Assembly (NCBI GenBank): GCA_025829515.1
Contig: GCA_025829515.1_4865.1
Source of the DNA: a phage
Length of the DNA: 64,000 bases
Reading direction: 5' to 3' (one strand)
Part shown: piece after piece, positions 40,533-46,998 of the stretch
Position numbering within the stretch: the stretch's first letter is position 1
Layout: each line of letters opens with the position of its first letter
The notes under the pieces: model-generated
Told to the model about the DNA's origin: nothing
Database searches by the model: none
The model's input: the letters and a program-made list of their open reading frames with translations, nothing else
Made by a program: the position numbers and the translations under genes

Positions 40533-40543
40533 CTCTCCTCTCT

Positions 40544-40575
40544 GGAACCCTTCGGGGTTCCATTTCTTCTTTTTT
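40544..40575 (+). terminator. rho-independent terminator (GGAACCC-TTCG-GGGTTCC, T-run)
   Basis: 7-bp stem, TTCG loop, followed by ATTTCTTCTTTTTT. Confidence 0.6.
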
Positions 40576-40628
40576 ACGCATGACCTTTTGGATATGAACG
40601 ACTAATACTTTCTCATTAGAAGGCAAAC

Positions 40629-43139
40629 ATGCTCAAGGTCGAACGTATCATTTTGAAAGGATTTACCGGCATGGGGTTACATGAAATCGAAACGTTTGAT
40701 TTCACCCTTAAGTCAACCGTTACCATCATCCTCGGTGGCAACGGCTGCGGTAAAACAAGCCTCCTATCTGTTTTTCTCCCCTTAGCTCCAGCAAAATCTG
40801 AATTCCGTGAAGGTGGTTCTTACACTAACTACGCGTTAGTCGGGGACGACCGTCTTAAGTTTGAAGTCCTGCGACGTGGGTCTTCTTTGTCTTGTAGTAT
40901 TTTCAATATCACTAAAGGTGTCTCCATCGTAGACTCGGTAAACGCCAAAGTTTACAACTCCATGGTGGAGCAATTAACCGGAATCACCAAAGAAATCAAA
41001 GAGTTAATTAATGGTGAGACCTTATTAACTGACGCCACTACCGAAGTTCGTCGTAAATGGTTTACGTTAATGTCAGAATCTGATCTGACGTACGTTGTTG
41101 GTTGCTATCGACGTTTGCGTAAACTCGCTTCCAGTTTAAGTGGGGCCATTGAGCACACCGGCCGTAAAATCGGTGAGGCAAAAATGCGCGTGGTGGACGA
41201 TGAAGAAGATCGTGCACGTTTGGAAGTTCGTTTGAAAGAACTCGATGCTGAGCTTCAGGAATTAAACCGCACAATTGAAGCGAGACCCGGTTTAGATAAT
41301 GCCGTTTCGGTTGATAGTATCCGGAAACGCATTGCTTCGTTGCAACCGGCTGTAAAACTCATTATGGAACGTTATGGCGTTCTGCCTTCTGACGAACTGA
41401 TTAACGAGTTTCAAAGTCGTGTGGTTGCCTGGCGTGAGCAAGCTGCCTCTGCTGAAACTGAATGCAACATGTACAATAAAGAGTTGTCACAGCTACTGGA
41501 TGAGGAGTCGCGTCAAGCGTATCTGATGCGCAACCATACCGGTCTAAAACAAACAATCGACAGCTTAAAACAGGAACTGGCAACGTTCCAACAGAACTGG
41601 ATGTTCCCGGCTCTGTTTGAAGGTACCCGCATTGATGTGGATAGCATTCAGAACGCGTTAAACGATGCCTGTAACTGGAATTTACCGTTGTCCATGCATC
41701 TGGACCAGTTAAAGACAACAGATCGCCTGGGAGCGTTAGAGAAGCGTTTACAGGGTATGGATTTAACCTCTGCGGGTCTATCTGAAAAGCTGCAACGTTG
41801 TGAGAATGTGCTACACGGTTTATACCACGACCGTCAACACTTCTTAGAAACTGCAGAAGTTGATTGTCCACAGTGTAACCACCGTTTCCGTCCTGGGATT
41901 CGTAAGTCGTTACCTGAAATTGAAAAGGCCATCAACGATAATGAAGGTTGGAAGAAGCAGCTGAAAGACGAAATGGATAGTCTTTTGCGTGACCGCAAAG
42001 AGATTGAAGAGGACGTCCGTAGCTTACGTACGATTCGCGAAATCGTCATGTCGTATTCCAACCATCCTGTTGTCGGTTTGTTTTTCCGTAAACTGCAGGA
42101 GCTGGATATCTTCACCACGGCGCGGGATCGTTATGGTGCCATTGCACGTGCCTTTACCGAAGAGTTAGATTCGGCCATGATGTATCTGCGTCAATCAGCG
42201 AAGCTTGCAACAGCGGAACGGGAATGGCAAGAGGCTGTTGCCGCAGTAGGTAATGTTGATGGTGCGCTGAGCCAGAAAATTGAACATATCCGTTCACAAC
42301 TGGACGGGGCTAACCGTCGACTGATAGAATACCGCAGACAAGCCAATGAGCTGGAACGCGAAACCACCCAACTGCAACAAACCAAAGAAGCAATCGAACG
42401 TTTCCAAAAAGGCTACGAACATCTGGTATCGGAAATGAACATCTCCGTTAACAACGTCGTGGTTCGCGAGTTGTTAAACCGACGCGAAGCGAAGCTCGAT
42501 GCGTACACTTCCGCTCGTGAACGGTTTCGTCAAATGGAAGGGGCTATTGCACGTTTAGCGGAATTGGAAAAAGAGCAAGCTGAGTTGCTCAAAGAACACC
42601 ATCATGCCAGATTGATTATCAATGCCGTCTCACCCGAAAAAGGATTATTGCGTCGTTACTTTTATGCTGCGATTACCCGCATCATGGATTTAATGAATCG
42701 GTATATCGAAATGGTGTGGGCATATCCGATGCAGGTTATTCCATGCGATCTAACCGACGGGGATTTGGATTATACTTTCCCGGTGCGATTAAAAGACCAT
42801 GAAGAACTGGTGCCGGATGTGAAGAAAGGTTCAAAAGCACAGCGTATCATTTTCAACATGATGTTTCGTTTAACGGCGTATAAAGCACTTGGTTTACAAA
42901 ATTATCCTTTGTTATTGGATGAACCATCTGAAGGCATGGATGAAGAACACAAAAACCGATTAGTTAACTTCATTAAATCGTTGGCGTTGTCGGGAGAGTT
43001 TTCTCAATTGCTGGTCGTTTCGCATGAAGCGGAAGTTCATTCTAAACTTAACGAAGCCACCTACTGTGTCGTAGAACCAGAAGGTGTAACGCTTCCACCG
43101 GTGTATAACGAAGGGGTAATAATCAAATATGCATCATAA
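40629..43139 (+). CDS. Rad50/SbcC-like recombination/repair ATPase with zinc hook (836 aa)
   Basis: N-terminal Walker A GGNGCGKTS; long coiled-coil middle containing CPQCNHRF (CxxC zinc-hook); C-terminal LLLDEPSEGMDEEH (Walker B / D-loop) and VVSHE (H-loop). Confidence 0.7.
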   Translation: MLKVERIILKGFTGMGLHEIETFDFTLKSTVTIILGGNGCGKTSLLSVFLPLAPAKSEFREGGSYTNYALVGDDRLKFEVLRRGSSLSCSIFNITKGVSIVDSVNAKVYNSMVEQLTGITKEIKELINGETLLTDATTEVRRKWFTLMSESDLTYVVGCYRRLRKLASSLSGAIEHTGRKIGEAKMRVVDDEEDRARLEVRLKELDAELQELNRTIEARPGLDNAVSVDSIRKRIASLQPAVKLIMERYGVLPSDELINEFQSRVVAWREQAASAETECNMYNKELSQLLDEESRQAYLMRNHTGLKQTIDSLKQELATFQQNWMFPALFEGTRIDVDSIQNALNDACNWNLPLSMHLDQLKTTDRLGALEKRLQGMDLTSAGLSEKLQRCENVLHGLYHDRQHFLETAEVDCPQCNHRFRPGIRKSLPEIEKAINDNEGWKKQLKDEMDSLLRDRKEIEEDVRSLRTIREIVMSYSNHPVVGLFFRKLQELDIFTTARDRYGAIARAFTEELDSAMMYLRQSAKLATAEREWQEAVAAVGNVDGALSQKIEHIRSQLDGANRRLIEYRRQANELERETTQLQQTKEAIERFQKGYEHLVSEMNISVNNVVVRELLNRREAKLDAYTSARERFRQMEGAIARLAELEKEQAELLKEHHHARLIINAVSPEKGLLRRYFYAAITRIMDLMNRYIEMVWAYPMQVIPCDLTDGDLDYTFPVRLKDHEELVPDVKKGSKAQRIIFNMMFRLTAYKALGLQNYPLLLDEPSEGMDEEHKNRLVNFIKSLALSGEFSQLLVVSHEAEVHSKLNEATYCVVEPEGVTLPPVYNEGVIIKYAS

Positions 43140-43320
43140 AGGTTGGCGCTTATGGGCTTGGTGGGGTTTTCAGTTCCTTCAGTTTGTTGTGATGGTACTG
43201 TACCTCTCCTTTTGTGCAACCGTAGTGGTTATCGCTGCGGTCGTTTATTTAGCTGCTGCTCTTAAAGAACGTCTGTTCGACACGCGTTGTGAGTGGCGAG
43301 ATATAGGGGAACGGACATGA
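43129..43320 (+). CDS. small hydrophobic membrane protein (63 aa)
   Basis: Trp-rich N-terminus and two predicted TM helices; start overlaps the end of the Rad50-like gene. Confidence 0.4.
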   Translation: MHHKGWRLWAWWGFQFLQFVVMVLYLSFCATVVVIAAVVYLAAALKERLFDTRCEWRDIGERT

Positions 43321-43421
43321 TTGAAGGTATCGTATTAACCGGTATTGCACTGTGGTTGATTCGTGGTGCCTGGGGTTGGATTATCCGCACGAAAGGATGG
43401 GCGTTCCATGGCAACACGTAA
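43317..43421 (+). CDS. tiny hydrophobic peptide (34 aa)
   Basis: ATGA overlap with the upstream stop; MIEGIVLTGIALWLIRGAWGWIIR is a single TM-like helix. Not in the track. Confidence 0.25.
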   Translation: MIEGIVLTGIALWLIRGAWGWIIRTKGWAFHGNT

Positions 43422-43611
43422 ACCACGTCGCTTAAAATCTTGGGCGGTTGTGATAATGCACACTGTAGTGTTGCTGGGTATTTTCTTGTCTCGTGCCACG
43501 CCTGCCTTTTGGGGCTTAGTTGTTTTGGTGTTCTTAGAAGGGGTTTACTTCGGTAATCTGTGGAGCAAGCCCCCGCGTTTAAGGGACCCGGCTTATGACA
43601 GTCGTGAATAG
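43408..43611 (+). CDS. small membrane protein (about 67 aa)
   Basis: Start chosen at ATG 43408 (AAAGGATGG RBS); two hydrophobic helices. Confidence 0.35.
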   Translation: MATRKPRRLKSWAVVIMHTVVLLGIFLSRATPAFWGLVVLVFLEGVYFGNLWSKPPRLRDPAYDSRE

Positions 43612-43726
43612 TGTCAACGCGGCGATGATTGCAACGGGTGCGTATGACGGTGCCACATGGACAGATGTTGGTATCACGCTTATCATTTGCGCAATCGGAG
43701 CGTTTGTAGCAACATGGTTATTTTAG
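43595..43726 (+). CDS. tiny hydrophobic peptide (43 aa)
   Basis: ATG overlapping the end of the previous ORF; GITLIICAIGAFVATWLF TM-like segment. Not in the track. Confidence 0.25.
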   Translation: MTVVNSVNAAMIATGAYDGATWTDVGITLIICAIGAFVATWLF

Positions 43727-43839
43727 TGAAATGGGTTGGGTGTATCGTCTGTAGCCTGATACTAGGAGCGGGCGCATACGCCCTAGGCGCAATCCTTGCA
43801 TTGACGCAAGGTTGGTTTTAACAGGAGGGTAATTACGAA

Positions 43840-44118
43840 GTGGGAGAAACGTCATGTAACAGTGAAACAGTCTCTGATCCCGTGGTCGTGGGTTCAGGGG
43901 CGGCCGAGCCAACCCGGCGTATCGTTCTTTCGGGCGTGGGGATGGCTATAGGGTCTTCAAAGAACCTTCTAGCAGACATCGCGGAAGTCTGCGGGCCGGA
44001 TGATTTTGCAGTTTCACGTACAGTCGGGGAAGACTGGCGTGGTAATCAGAAGCGCCATGAGCGAATGTGGCGACGGAAGGTTACCTCAGCATCGCAGCGT
44101 TTTCAACGACGTTGTTGA
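43840..44118 (+). CDS. hypothetical protein (92 aa)
   Basis: GTG start with AGGAGGG RBS. Confidence 0.35.
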   Translation: MGETSCNSETVSDPVVVGSGAAEPTRRIVLSGVGMAIGSSKNLLADIAEVCGPDDFAVSRTVGEDWRGNQKRHERMWRRKVTSASQRFQRRC

Positions 44119-44237
44119 TCAAAGACACGGTTCCGATAGAGAACTGGTCTTTACCTGCAGCGGTATACACCGCTAAGCTTTACCGGTAAACTTAAGAAAA
44201 CACAAACGCAATTCTTCGTTACTCGCTTTCATCGCAG

Positions 44238-44753
44238 GTGAAAGCTCACTTAGGAATTCAGCTCATGGCCGAAATTGTCATTCTTTCCTCATCCTCAGAT
44301 TTAACGGAAGCACAAAATAAACAGCTGTTGGGGCTGCATTATAAATTTCTGAACCACCAACGTACCATACTCCATATCGAAAAAGGTGAGATTCCGAACC
44401 TCACTCTGGAGAAACTGTTGGCGGGGAACCGTGCCTGCGTTGCTCTGGAAGGGGGCACCCCTGTTGGTTACTGTTTGTATCGCGTAATCGCTGGGGTTCT
44501 GAAGATTCGTACGATGTTCGTGTCCGAAATGGCACGCCGTCGCAAAACGATGACGCAGATTTTTGATGCGCTTGATGTGAATGAGCAGTTCACCAGTGCG
44601 CATGGGGGAATATACGCTTGCCAGGAAGCTGGTATTGCGTTCTTTACCGCTCGCGGTTTTGACAAGACCGTCTCTACAGACGGACAATGGCTTGAATTTA
44701 AGAAGCAGGTTCCTGCGGAAGCAGATGAACCTTTAAGGACTGCGGTAGCATAG
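44238..44753 (+). CDS. hypothetical protein (up to 171 aa; an ATG at 44265 is an alternative start)
   Basis: ORF track; weak RBS; no confident motif (an acetyltransferase-like fold was considered but is not supported). Confidence 0.4.
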   Translation: MKAHLGIQLMAEIVILSSSSDLTEAQNKQLLGLHYKFLNHQRTILHIEKGEIPNLTLEKLLAGNRACVALEGGTPVGYCLYRVIAGVLKIRTMFVSEMARRRKTMTQIFDALDVNEQFTSAHGGIYACQEAGIAFFTARGFDKTVSTDGQWLEFKKQVPAEADEPLRTAVA

Positions 44754-44823
44754 TCCTGTTTTAGCACTCCTTACGATTATGCCTCACTATGAGTGGGGTA
44801 TTTTTACGCGAGGAGTGCTATTT

Positions 44824-46275: not shown

Positions 46276-46998
46276 ATGTTTCGCACCATTTTATTTCTTC
46301 TGGTAGCAATGACTACGTTCAACAGCAACGCTTCTTACCAGACCACCAGTAACAAACACCAAAAAGAATTCGTCCTTATCCAGGACCAGTTCAATGAGAT
46401 TAAACCTCTCATCGTCACCGCATCTCGAAAACAAGGCGTACATGCCGGGATGCTCGCGACCACCATTTATCGTGAATCCCGTTTTAATAAAAACGTGGGT
46501 AAGAATAAATCGAGCAGTGCTAGTAGTGTTGTCCAAATGACGACAGGCACTAAACGCTCCATGATACGTCTGTATGGGAAACAACTTAACATCCCAAAGA
46601 ATGCGGACCTTAATAAACCGAAGTATGCTGTACAGCTTGCTGCCGTTTACATGAAACACATCGAGGATCATCTGACAAAACAACTCAAACGCAAGCCGAG
46701 CACAGCCGAAATCGCTTTAGGCTACCGCTTCGGTGAGGGTGCTGCTGTTGCGATGATTAAAAAGAAATCACCGGTCGGGAAACGCTGGATGGCCAGCTAC
46801 CGAAAAGACGCAGCATTCTACGGTGCGAAAATGACACCACCGAAAGCTGAAACACGTCAGCTTGCTTTTGCGAAGGAAGACCGCGACCAACGCGTCGCTG
46901 AGCTTCAGAAAATCTGGGATACGCTGTACACCAAAATATCACCTGCGGCCGGTACATTACTGGCAAATAACACTATCATGAAAGGAGCATTGCTTTGA
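46276..46998 (+). CDS. secreted lytic transglycosylase-like (SLT-domain) protein, 240 aa
   Basis: Signal peptide MFRTILFLLVAMTTFNSNA; RESRFN (catalytic E-S), VVQMT (compare GLMQ) and LGYRFGEGAA (compare AYNAG) resemble the SLT domain motif order. Confidence 0.4.
   Translation: MFRTILFLLVAMTTFNSNASYQTTSNKHQKEFVLIQDQFNEIKPLIVTASRKQGVHAGMLATTIYRESRFNKNVGKNKSSSASSVVQMTTGTKRSMIRLYGKQLNIPKNADLNKPKYAVQLAAVYMKHIEDHLTKQLKRKPSTAEIALGYRFGEGAAVAMIKKKSPVGKRWMASYRKDAAFYGAKMTPPKAETRQLAFAKEDRDQRVAELQKIWDTLYTKISPAAGTLLANNTIMKGALL

What the first reader, a model, noticed from the sequence alone, without database searches (positions are those of the whole stretch)
43129..43821. Cluster of five overlapping mini-ORFs encoding tiny hydrophobic peptides
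Downstream of the Rad50-like gene, at least five ORFs of 31-67 aa (43129, 43317, 43408, 43595, 43726) each encode one or two TM-like helices and are chained by ATGA or overlapping stop/start junctions, suggesting translational coupling. Small membrane peptides of this kind in phages often modulate host membrane proteins or exclusion.
Basis: seen in the sequence. Interest (0 to 1): 0.4.

Follow-up and report, generated by a model that had tools for sequence, protein, structure and literature searches.

The report
Five coupled small phage membrane proteins
Right after the essential DNA-repair gene (sbcC-like) of a SPN3US-type giant Salmonella phage sit five real, conserved, overlapping genes for tiny membrane proteins of unknown function: an ordinary kind of phage accessory gene cluster, partly annotated already.

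Summary
The window is a SPN3US-like jumbo phage (Seoulvirus). Five + strand mini-ORFs (63, 34, 67, 43 and 31/35 aa) follow the sbcC-like gene, each overlapping its neighbour. They are genes, not chance ORFs. Variable sites fall 18/7/47 on codon positions 1/2/3, and dN/dS is 0.06-0.41. All five persist in SPAsTU at 69% nucleotide identity. Antisense ORFs are broken by stops in relatives. SD-like sites precede every start.

Two corrections: only one junction is ATGA, and ORF5 more likely starts at ATG 43714 than at GTG 43726.

The cassette is modular across relatives. ORF1 and ORF2 are nearly universal; ORF3, ORF4 and ORF5 come and go. It is absent from phiKZ, Goslar, EL and Ea35-70.

Four ORFs match PHROG families of unknown function. 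Nothing matches Pfam, NCBIfam, PADLOC or PDB. SPN3US annotates three of them (gp187-189), and Thomas et al. 2016 already noted that gp187 is a membrane protein beside SbcC.

Function is unresolved. I favour co-translated accessory inner-membrane proteins that act on the host envelope. Rival roles are lysis control and a membrane tether for SbcCD. Interest is modest.

The parts
40543..40596 (+). Likely start of the transcription unit. A strong UUCG-loop hairpin terminator of the preceding unit is followed by a T-run, then TAC, 17-18 nt, then TATG, ahead of the sbcC-like gene.
   Evidence: The terminator scan finds TGGAACCCTTCGGGGTTCCA plus a T-run. The hairpin / T-run-TAC / N17-18 / TATG layout is kept upstream of sbcC in 10 divergent loci; CR5 has TATA in place of TATG. 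Its role as a promoter is inferred, not shown. Genome-wide enrichment of the motif is only modest: 10 observed against 3.6 +/- 1.9 in shuffles.
40629..43139 (+). SbcC/Rad50-like ABC ATPase gene (836 aa), equal to SPN3US gp186. It is the first gene of the unit, and its last 11 nt overlap ORF1.
   Evidence: Annotated as an SMC-domain / SbcC-like protein in relatives. Shown to be essential by an amber mutant in SPN3US (PMC5105663).
43129..43320 (+). ORF1 (63 aa), equal to SPN3US_0187 (gp187). A single long TM helix with a charged C-terminal tail. Invariant residues are Y25, F28, C29 and Y40; R53-C54-E55-W56-R57 is kept in all but one truncated homologue.
   Evidence: phrog_16515, E = 2.6e-29. dN/dS 0.08-0.30. 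AF2 helix 3-51. Alignments. The family is confined to this phage clade. SD-like site, dG -8.0.
43317..43421 (+). ORF2 (34 aa). An N-terminal hydrophobic anchor followed by a basic, aromatic tail (RTKGWAF). It is the most widely conserved member. It is not annotated in the SPN3US reference.
   Evidence: ATGA junction with ORF1. phrog_13448, E = 1.1e-8. dN/dS 0.06-0.29. Found in every related lineage sampled from IMG/VR and metagenomes (SbcC identity 53-100%); CR5 was not searched for it. SD-like site, dG -6.4, spacing 6.
43408..43611 (+). ORF3 (67 aa), equal to SPN3US_0188. A two-helix TM hairpin with a strongly basic N-terminus and a conserved C-tail PPxLRDPAYDxRE. It is dispensable in several lineages.
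   Evidence: phrog_18173, E = 1.4e-36. dN/dS 0.17-0.18. AF2 helices 7-28 and 32-53. Cleanly deleted in Erwinia phage pEa_SNUABM_29 and absent from the ~225-kb clade. The C-tail is frameshifted by an extra C in Lh1B and EC001.
43595..43726 (+). ORF4 (43 aa), equal to SPN3US_0189. An acidic N-terminal segment with no Lys or Arg, then a C-terminal TM helix that ends in WLF.
   Evidence: phrog_29196, E = 1.8e-29. dN/dS 0.08-0.16. Homologous to the 42-aa ORF of the ~225-kb clade (hhalign probability 95%, E = 2.4e-8). Absent in phiEaH2, L018 and L028.
43714..43821 (+). ORF5 (35 aa from ATG 43714; 31 aa if from GTG 43726). A single TM helix with an invariant C-terminus ALTQGWF.
   Evidence: The motif is invariant in 8 lineages while its codons vary synonymously, so the constraint is on the protein and not on the overlapping terminator-like hairpin 43794-43811. 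dN/dS 0.18-0.41. Start choice. No convincing PHROG match (E = 0.011).
43840..44118 (+). Possible sixth ORF (92 aa, GTG start). It is not hydrophobic and has a very basic C-terminus. It lies between the cassette and the GNAT gene. Its status is uncertain.
   Evidence: It has the strongest SD in the region (AGGAGGG, dG -10.8), and an SD-like site followed by a start codon sits after ORF5 in all lineages. phrog_15402, E = 1e-12. However, variable sites show no third-position bias (6/8/9), and its 3' part lies in a nucleotide block that is almost invariant across lineages.
44265..44753 (+). GNAT acetyltransferase gene, the conserved downstream boundary of the cassette in all lineages.
   Evidence: phrog_3810 acetyltransferase, E = 3e-42. 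Pfam Acetyltransf_1 at 21.3 bits against a cutoff of 20.7. Synteny.
44762..44823 (+). Nested hairpin that ends the unit. An inner hairpin plus TTTTTACG sits inside an outer stem that pairs the SD of the next gene (ATG 44824).
   Evidence: Folds at -29 to -34 kcal/mol in 8 lineages, with a compensatory A:T to T:A change in the outer stem. Functions as terminator, promoter or translational control element are inferred.

Best explanation
The five ORFs are genuine genes for very small integral inner-membrane proteins. Four are single-pass and one is a two-helix hairpin.

They lie in the middle of one transcription unit: sbcC-like gene, then ORF1-5, then possibly a basic 92-aa ORF, then a GNAT acetyltransferase. 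They are translated by coupling. Each start lies inside or abuts the preceding reading frame and has its own SD-like site. Ribosomes finishing one ORF can therefore re-initiate on the next, and the peptides are made together and in fixed proportions.

After insertion into the host cytoplasmic membrane they most likely act there as a lineage-specific accessory module, probably as hetero-oligomers. The module would change a property of the host envelope in the phage's favour. Superinfection exclusion or interference with a host membrane protein is the likeliest role. Control of lysis timing is the next.

Shown: the ORFs exist, they are under protein-level purifying selection, they are hydrophobic and helical, the overlaps and SD sites are present, and the cassette is conserved but modular.

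Inferred: co-transcription with sbcC, translational coupling, membrane insertion and topology, complex formation, and the envelope-directed role.
For: Coding status:
- Third-position bias of variable sites, 18/7/47, p = 2e-8.
- dN/dS 0.06-0.41.
- All five ORFs are kept at 69% nucleotide identity in SPAsTU and annotated there.
- The ALTQGWF codons of ORF5 vary synonymously.
- Antisense ORFs decay in relatives.

Membrane character: Kyte-Doolittle maxima of 2.1-2.7. AF2 gives a long helix for ORF1 and a hairpin for ORF3. TMHMM predicted a TM domain for gp187 in PMC5105663.

Coupling and single unit:
- The overlaps of 4-17 nt are kept in SPAsTU (8-23 nt). Other lineages keep the tight sbcC/ORF1 and ORF5 junctions, although the ~225-kb clade has gaps of 11 and 57 nt.
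- SD-like duplex energies of -5.5 to -8.3 kcal/mol before each start, against a random mean of -2.5.
- A strong terminator lies just upstream of sbcC (40543-40562). The only convincing one downstream is the nested hairpin after the GNAT gene.

Accessory and modular nature: ORF3 is missing in pEa_SNUABM_29. ORF4 is missing in phiEaH2 and L018. ORF3 and ORF5 are missing in the ~225-kb clade. Extra or different membrane ORFs occur in L025, L032 and L035. The cassette is absent in phiKZ-like, PS119XW, Ea35-70, Goslar and EL phages.

The five peptides are not paralogues of one another, which fits distinct subunits or functions.
Against: - There is no functional evidence of any kind. No family with a known role matches.
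- No transcript, Ribo-seq or proteome data could be consulted.
- Hetero-oligomer formation was not testable with the tools available.
- Weak terminator-like hairpins lie inside the cassette at 43219-43241 and 43794-43811. Their sequences are explained by coding constraint in at least the second case.
- A small membrane ORF always directly follows sbcC in this clade, even when it belongs to an unrelated family (phrog_16515, 15545, 21934). That fits a link to SbcC rather better than a generic envelope role.
Confidence: 0.45

Rival explanations
1. Membrane tether or partner of the SbcCD-like nuclease. ORF1, perhaps with the others, anchors or regulates the essential gp186/gp27 end-processing complex at a membrane. 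This is what has been proposed for T4 gp47.1 with gp46/gp47.
For: - Thomas et al. 2016 raised exactly this idea for gp187 (PMC5105663).
- ORF1 overlaps the sbcC stop by 11 nt. A small membrane ORF directly abuts sbcC in every lineage of the SPN3US/phiEaH2/CR5 group, even where it is an unrelated family.
- T4 has a 46-aa predicted membrane ORF (47.1) joined by a 4-nt overlap to gene 47.
Against: - No sequence similarity to T4 47.1 (BLASTP E > 0.8).
- Other chimalliviruses with the same SbcC (phiKZ-like, PS119XW, Ea35-70, Goslar, EL) have soluble proteins downstream and no TM mini-ORF.
- In this phage family DNA metabolism takes place inside a protein-shelled nucleus, away from the membrane. This rests on established knowledge of Chimalliviridae and was not tested here.
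- Five different peptides, three of them dispensable in some lineages, are more than a tether needs.
Confidence: 0.15
2. Lysis control. One or more of the peptides is the so far unidentified holin, pinholin or antiholin of Seoulvirus phages. ORF1 has a single TM helix plus a charged tail. ORF3 has two TM helices with basic and charged ends. They would work with the signal-peptide-bearing SLT transglycosylase encoded 2.45 kb downstream.
For: - Size, TM number and charged C-termini fit holin classes.
- The only lytic transglycosylase nearby (46276-46998) has an N-terminal hydrophobic signal/SAR-like segment.
- A study of a Seoulvirus jumbo phage reports endolysin-type genes for it but names no holin (PMC11180984).
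- Three of 14 ORF1-family members give a sub-threshold hit to Phage_holin_3_6 (best E = 0.095).
Against: - The cassette is not adjacent to the transglycosylase. Six genes and a terminator-like nested hairpin separate them.
- It is co-transcribed with, and coupled to, a DNA-repair gene. Premature holin production would be harmful (inference).
- There is no dual-start motif.
- No significant match to any holin family.
- ORF3, the most holin-like member, is missing in several lineages.
Confidence: 0.2
3. Hok/Gef-like membrane toxin. ORF1 is a phage version of a type I toxin: a TM helix followed by a C-E-[I/W]-R motif.
For: ORF1 ends its TM helix with R-x-C-E-W-R. Hok, whose sequence was verified at 100% identity on plasmids annotated as Hok family toxin, has K-S-L-C-E-I-R after its TM helix. 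Both also have a Cys within the TM helix.
Against: - Profile comparison gives 1% probability over 6 aligned columns.
- Pfam Hok_Gef is not hit by any of 14 family members, even at E = 10.
- The resemblance is a 4-residue motif.
Confidence: 0.03
4. The ORFs are chance reading frames in a non-coding or RNA-coding spacer.
For: Annotation is inconsistent: between 0 and 5 of the ORFs are called in 13 related genomes. ORF5 has no convincing PHROG match.
Against: Codon-position bias, low dN/dS, conservation across 53-100% SbcC identity, SD sites, and no Rfam or tRNA hit in the region.
Confidence: 0.03

Closest known systems
SPN3US gp187-gp189 (SPN3US_0187/0188/0189) and the five annotated ORFs MLDJOKPK_00249-00253 of Salmonella phage SPAsTU
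   Same: These are direct orthologues. ORF1, ORF3 and ORF4 are 91-95% identical in protein to SPN3US gp187, gp188 and gp189. SPAsTU has all five ORFs in the same order and with overlaps.
   Different: ORF2 and ORF5 are not annotated in the SPN3US reference. None of these proteins has an assigned function.
PHROG families phrog_16515, phrog_13448, phrog_18173 and phrog_29196 (all 'unknown function')
   Same: ORF1-4 match over essentially their full length, with E-values from 1e-8 to 1e-36.
   Different: The families carry no functional information. ORF5 has no family.
T4 gp47.1, the small predicted membrane protein coupled to the SbcD/SbcC-like genes 47 and 46
   Same: It is a 46-aa hydrophobic ORF overlapping its SbcCD-type neighbour by 4 nt, in a chain of small overlapping ORFs (47.1, 47, 46.2, 46.1, 46). 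The analogy was already drawn in PMC5105663.
   Different: There is no sequence similarity (E > 0.8). In T4 the ORF lies upstream of the sbcD-like gene, not downstream of sbcC. T4 has one membrane ORF, not five. The T4 protein is itself uncharacterised.
Small membrane proteins of large virulent phages that act on the envelope, such as T4 Imm (superinfection immunity) and class II holins or pinholins such as S21
   Same: Size (30-85 aa), one or two TM helices, charged termini, and an accessory, lineage-variable distribution. The knowledge of these families is my own.
   Different: No homology was detected through PHROGs or Pfam. The genomic context differs: the ORFs are in a DNA-repair operon, not a lysis cassette. 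No phenotype is known.
Hok/Gef type I toxins
   Same: A single TM helix containing a Cys, followed by a basic stretch and C-E-[I/W]-R.
   Different: hhalign probability is 1%. There is no Pfam Hok_Gef hit. No antisense-RNA locus organisation was looked for.

Membership tests
PHROG families phrog_16515 / 13448 / 18173 / 29196 (unknown function) | Significant full-length match to the family profile | tested here: met
   E = 2.6e-29, 1.1e-8, 1.4e-36 and 1.8e-29 for ORF1-4. ORF5 reaches only E = 0.011 to phrog_8626, which I do not accept.
Holin / pinholin | Sequence membership of a described holin family | tested here: not met
   No Pfam or PHROG holin family passes threshold. The best result is Phage_holin_3_6 at E = 0.095 for 3 of 14 ORF1 homologues.
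Holin / pinholin | Small protein with at least one TM domain and a charged, hydrophilic C-terminus | tested here: met
   ORF1 has one long helix and the tail KERLFDTRCEWRDIGERT. ORF3 has two helices and the tail SKPPRLRDPAYDSRE.
Holin / pinholin | Gene located in a lysis cassette next to the endolysin | tested here: not met
   The nearest muralytic gene (SLT, 46276-46998) is 2.45 kb away. Six genes and a terminator-like nested hairpin lie between.
Holin / pinholin | Dual-start motif, late expression, and membrane-lesion activity | not testable with these tools
   No Met-Lys/Arg-Met type dual start is visible in ORF1 or ORF3. Expression timing and activity need experiments.
Hok/Gef type I toxin (Pfam PF01848) | Match to the Hok_Gef profile or homology to Hok | tested here: not met
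   No hit for any of 14 homologues at E <= 10. hhalign against verified Hok gives probability 1% over 6 columns.
T4 gp47.1-type SbcCD-associated membrane ORF | Small TM ORF translationally coupled to an sbcC/sbcD-like gene | tested here: met
   ORF1 overlaps the sbcC stop by 11 nt. T4 47.1 overlaps gene 47 by 4 nt.
T4 gp47.1-type SbcCD-associated membrane ORF | Sequence homology to T4 gp47.1 | tested here: not met
   The best BLASTP E-value is 0.83, over 25 residues.
T4 gp47.1-type SbcCD-associated membrane ORF | Physical association with the SbcCD complex | not testable with these tools
   This needs pull-down, two-hybrid or localisation experiments.
Anti-defence or defence-system components (PADLOC) and NCBIfam named families | Profile match | tested here: not met
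   Zero families at E <= 1 for all five peptides.
Spanins (i-spanin / o-spanin) | An o-spanin has a lipobox signal peptide. An i-spanin has an N-terminal TM helix plus a periplasmic coiled-coil domain of about 100 aa. | tested here: not met
   By inspection of the sequences, there is no N-terminal basic signal followed by an L-x-x-C lipobox, and no peptide is long enough for a periplasmic domain.

The most novel reading that the evidence does not exclude
The cassette encodes a dedicated hetero-oligomeric mini-complex of the inner membrane that is functionally tied to the essential SbcCD-like nuclease. It might, for example, hold or gate DNA-end processing at the membrane or entry vesicle during the earliest phase of a nucleus-forming phage infection. 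Alternatively it is the missing, unconventional holin system of Seoulvirus phages, embedded in a replication operon. The invariant periplasm-facing C-terminus ALTQGWF of ORF5 could be a docking motif for a host periplasmic protein.
Probability: 0.12. Interest if true: 0.6.

Novelty: new member of a known kind. Interest (0 to 1): 0.3.

Why it matters
Small membrane proteins are the least understood and worst annotated part of phage genomes. Here between 0 and 5 of the same five genes are called in 13 near-identical genomes.

This work shows that all five are under selection, fixes the likely start of ORF5, and shows that the cassette is a modular, clade-specific unit. Together these give a clean, testable target set for a genetically tractable giant phage, SPN3US.

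If the peptides proved to be the Seoulvirus holin system or partners of SbcCD, that would fill a real gap in giant-phage biology. If they are exclusion or host-takeover factors, they add to a known class. Either way the present evidence does not make them exceptional.

Tried and rejected
1. Chance ORFs or an RNA element: rejected. Codon-position bias, dN/dS, decay of antisense ORFs, and no Rfam or tRNA hit argue against it.

2. Conservation of the ORF5 C-terminus being due to the terminator-like hairpin 43794-43811: rejected. The codons vary synonymously and the hairpin is not kept.

3. Homology to Hok/Gef: rejected.

4. Homology to T4 47.1, 46.1, 46.2 or 45.2, and paralogy among the five peptides: none found.

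5. Pfam, NCBIfam, PADLOC and PDB sequence searches gave nothing. The PDB search was run for ORF4 only.

6. Wider homologues of ORF1:
- A 5.8-billion-protein search gave 28 clusters, all hypothetical and all from this phage clade.
- An exhaustive profile search of 1.84 billion representatives gave 5 hits, four of them known in-clade clusters and one (P0034, 66 aa) not examined.
- ORF3 gave 5 clusters.
- ORF2 could not be searched in the large database because it is below the 40-aa minimum.

7. Expression evidence. No SPN3US transcriptome was found. The infected-cell proteome paper (Weintraub et al. 2019, PMC6384053) is not held. ORF4 has no Lys or Arg and ORF5 has one, so standard tryptic proteomics would probably miss them anyway.

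8. Assigning a temporal class from promoter motifs. The T-run-TAC-N17/18-TATG layout upstream of sbcC is conserved across lineages, but its genome-wide enrichment is weak. No SPN3US promoter data exist, so the class is left open.

9. Functional clues from inserted genes in relatives (the 128-aa ORF in L032 and L035, CR5_171, the L025 ORFs): all fall in PHROGs of unknown function.

Full report
**What the window is.** The region is 95-98% identical in nucleotides to Seoulvirus jumbo phages such as SPFM4, Lh1B and SPN3US. The gene ending at 43139 is the SbcC/Rad50-like ABC ATPase, SPN3US gp186. An amber mutant showed that gene to be essential (PMC5105663). The downstream boundary is a GNAT acetyltransferase at 44265-44753.

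**The observation.** All five ORFs exist at the stated coordinates on the + strand.

| ORF | Coordinates | Length |
|---|---|---|
| ORF1 | 43129-43320 | 63 aa |
| ORF2 | 43317-43421 | 34 aa |
| ORF3 | 43408-43611 | 67 aa |
| ORF4 | 43595-43726 | 43 aa |
| ORF5 | 43726-43821 | 31 aa (GTG start) |

Every junction overlaps. The overlaps are 11 nt with sbcC, then 4 (the only ATGA), 14, 17 and 1 nt.

Each peptide has a strongly hydrophobic segment, with a maximum 15-residue Kyte-Doolittle mean of 2.1-2.7. AlphaFold2 predicts one continuous helix for ORF1 (residues 3-51, pLDDT 83). It predicts a helical hairpin for ORF3 (7-28 and 32-53, pLDDT 74). The description 'one or two TM-like helices' is therefore fair.

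**Are they genes?** Four lines of evidence say yes.
- *Substitution pattern.* I aligned the window with 12 relatives. Among 11 close genomes the variable sites in the non-overlapping parts fall 18/7/47 on codon positions 1/2/3 (chi-square p = 2e-8).
- *Selection.* Nei-Gojobori dN/dS against SPN3US, SPAsTU (69% nucleotide identity) and Erwinia phage pEa_SNUABM_29 is 0.06-0.41 for all five, with synonymous sites near saturation.
- *Antisense control.* The six antisense ORFs of the region pick up stop codons in relatives, some of them in close relatives.
- *Initiation sites.* SD-like sequences precede each start, with duplex energies of -5.5 to -8.3 kcal/mol. Random positions average -2.5.

For ORF5 the GTG at 43726 has no SD (-2.2). 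ATG 43714 has one (-6.4), and SPAsTU and pEa29 have an in-frame ATG at the equivalent place. I therefore place the start at 43714, giving 35 aa and a 13-nt overlap with ORF4.

A terminator-like hairpin overlaps the 3' end of ORF5. It does not explain the conservation there. The invariant C-terminus ALTQGWF is encoded by synonymously varying codons in eight lineages.

**Distribution.** I fetched 22 further loci through the SbcC C-terminus from IMG/VR and metagenomes, spanning 53-100% identity. I searched them with profiles of the five peptides. The cassette always lies between sbcC and the GNAT gene, but its content varies.

| Lineage | Content |
|---|---|
| Seoulvirus proper | ORF1-5 |
| pEa_SNUABM_29 | lacks ORF3 (clean deletion) |
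| phiEaH2, L018, L028 | lack ORF4 |
| ~225-kb clade, abundant in metagenomes | only ORF1, ORF2 and an ORF4 homologue (hhalign 95%) |
| L025, L032, L035 | other small membrane ORFs, plus ORF2 and sometimes ORF5 |

ORF2 is the universal member among these loci. In Cronobacter phage CR5 an unrelated 113-aa membrane protein follows sbcC. In phiKZ-like, PS119XW, Ea35-70, Goslar and EL phages the downstream genes are soluble. Three unrelated small-membrane families occupy the first slot after sbcC in different lineages.

**What is already known.** ORF1-4 match PHROGs of unknown function. Nothing matches Pfam, NCBIfam or PADLOC for any of the five peptides, or PDB for ORF4, the one peptide searched there.

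SPN3US annotates ORF1, ORF3 and ORF4 as gp187-189. SPAsTU annotates all five. JN03 annotates none.

The ORF1 family is confined to this clade, even in a 5.8-billion-protein search and in an exhaustive profile search of 1.84 billion representatives.

Thomas et al. 2016 already noted that gp187 is a 63-aa TM protein next to SbcC. They compared it with T4 gp47.1. I checked T4. Its 47.1 is a 46-aa hydrophobic ORF overlapping gene 47 by 4 nt, but it shows no sequence similarity to any of the five peptides.

A resemblance of ORF1 to Hok (a TM helix followed by C-E-[I/W]-R) does not survive profile comparison, which gives 1% probability.

**Transcription unit.** A strong terminator sits just upstream of sbcC. 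It is followed in every lineage by a T-run-TAC-N17/18-TATG element.

After the GNAT gene a nested hairpin is conserved with a compensatory change. Its outer stem sequesters the next gene's SD.

Nothing comparable lies between these two sites. I therefore infer one unit: sbcC, ORF1-5, a possible 92-aa basic ORF, then GNAT. The temporal class cannot be assigned.

**Mechanism.** The data show a set of co-located, selection-maintained, overlapping genes for tiny membrane proteins, none related to another. I infer coupled translation, insertion into the inner membrane, and action there as an accessory module that is probably hetero-oligomeric.

Charge distribution suggests the following topologies:
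- ORF5: N-in/C-out.
- ORF4: N-out/C-in.
- ORF3: N-in/C-in.

The patchy presence of ORF3, ORF4 and ORF5, and the absence of the cassette outside one subclade, favour an accessory envelope-directed role. That could be superinfection exclusion or interference with a host membrane protein. My overall confidence in this reading is 0.45, most of which rests on the 'real, coupled membrane proteins' part.

Three rivals remain:
- *Lysis control (0.2).* A study of a Seoulvirus jumbo phage names no holin for it. A signal-peptide-bearing SLT lies 2.45 kb away. The context is wrong for a lysis cassette, however.
- *SbcCD tether (0.15).* The tight linkage to sbcC supports it. The absence of the cassette in other chimalliviruses argues against it.
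- *Hok-like toxin (0.03).*

**Verdict.** The feature is a real but ordinary kind of phage gene cluster. It is partly annotated and its function is unknown. Interest is 0.3.

Noticed in passing
window 44762-44823: There is a conserved nested RNA structure between the GNAT gene and the next gene (ATG 44824). The outer stem pairs that gene's SD (AGGAG) with an upstream complement. It shows a compensatory A:T to T:A change between the window and other lineages. The inner hairpin is followed by TTTTTACG. It folds at -29 to -34 kcal/mol in 8 lineages. It may combine a terminator, a promoter and RBS sequestration, as described for some T4 late genes (own knowledge).
   Followed up: partly
window 44018-44115 (within ORF 43840-44118 and overlapping ORF 44067-44189, which is SPN3US_0190): This nucleotide block is almost invariant between the window, SPAsTU and Erwinia pEa29, although the flanks are about 30% diverged. 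Two overlapping frames both look 'conserved', and variable sites show no third-position bias. There is no Rfam hit. The fold z-score is only -2.1. The 92-aa frame has a strong SD and a PHROG hit. The 40-aa frame annotated in SPN3US carries stops in Lh1B, EC001, JN03 and pEa29 and is probably a mis-annotation. The extra constraint on the block is unexplained.
   Followed up: partly
window 40543-40596; also 36782, 52233: A terminator hairpin is followed by T-run-TAC(G/A), and then, 17-18 nt later, TATG. This layout is conserved upstream of sbcC in ten divergent lineages; CR5 has TATA in place of TATG. It resembles features reported for phiKZ non-virion RNA polymerase promoters: a TAC motif near -22, and TATG at the start site (PMC7598289 and PMC8244752). 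Window-wide enrichment is only modest.
   Followed up: partly
window ~43565-43570 (C5 run in ORF3); L002 and L009: Escherichia phages Lh1B and EC001 carry an extra C in this homopolymer. It frameshifts the conserved C-tail of ORF3, giving 63 aa ending in an ATGA junction with ORF4. This could be a sequencing error or a tolerated truncation.
   Followed up: no
window 46276-46998: The SLT-domain transglycosylase has an N-terminal hydrophobic signal/SAR-like segment (MFRTILFLLVAMTTFNSNA). The next ORF overlaps it by ATGA. A study of a Seoulvirus jumbo phage names no holin for it.
   Followed up: partly
related records: Annotation of the same five ORFs ranges from none (JN03) to all five (SPAsTU) in near-identical genomes. 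Several SPFM assemblies align in 12-22 pieces here because of dense indels. They carry frameshifted 'hypothetical proteins' (P0026-28, P0031-33).
   Followed up: no
L019-L024, L026, L029-L033; protein clusters P0002, P0008: A related jumbo phage clade of about 220-228 kb is common in metagenomes. Its ORF1 homologue P0002 occurs on 188 contigs. One cluster is labelled as a Shigella flexneri protein in NCBI, which probably reflects phage DNA in a bacterial assembly.
   Followed up: no
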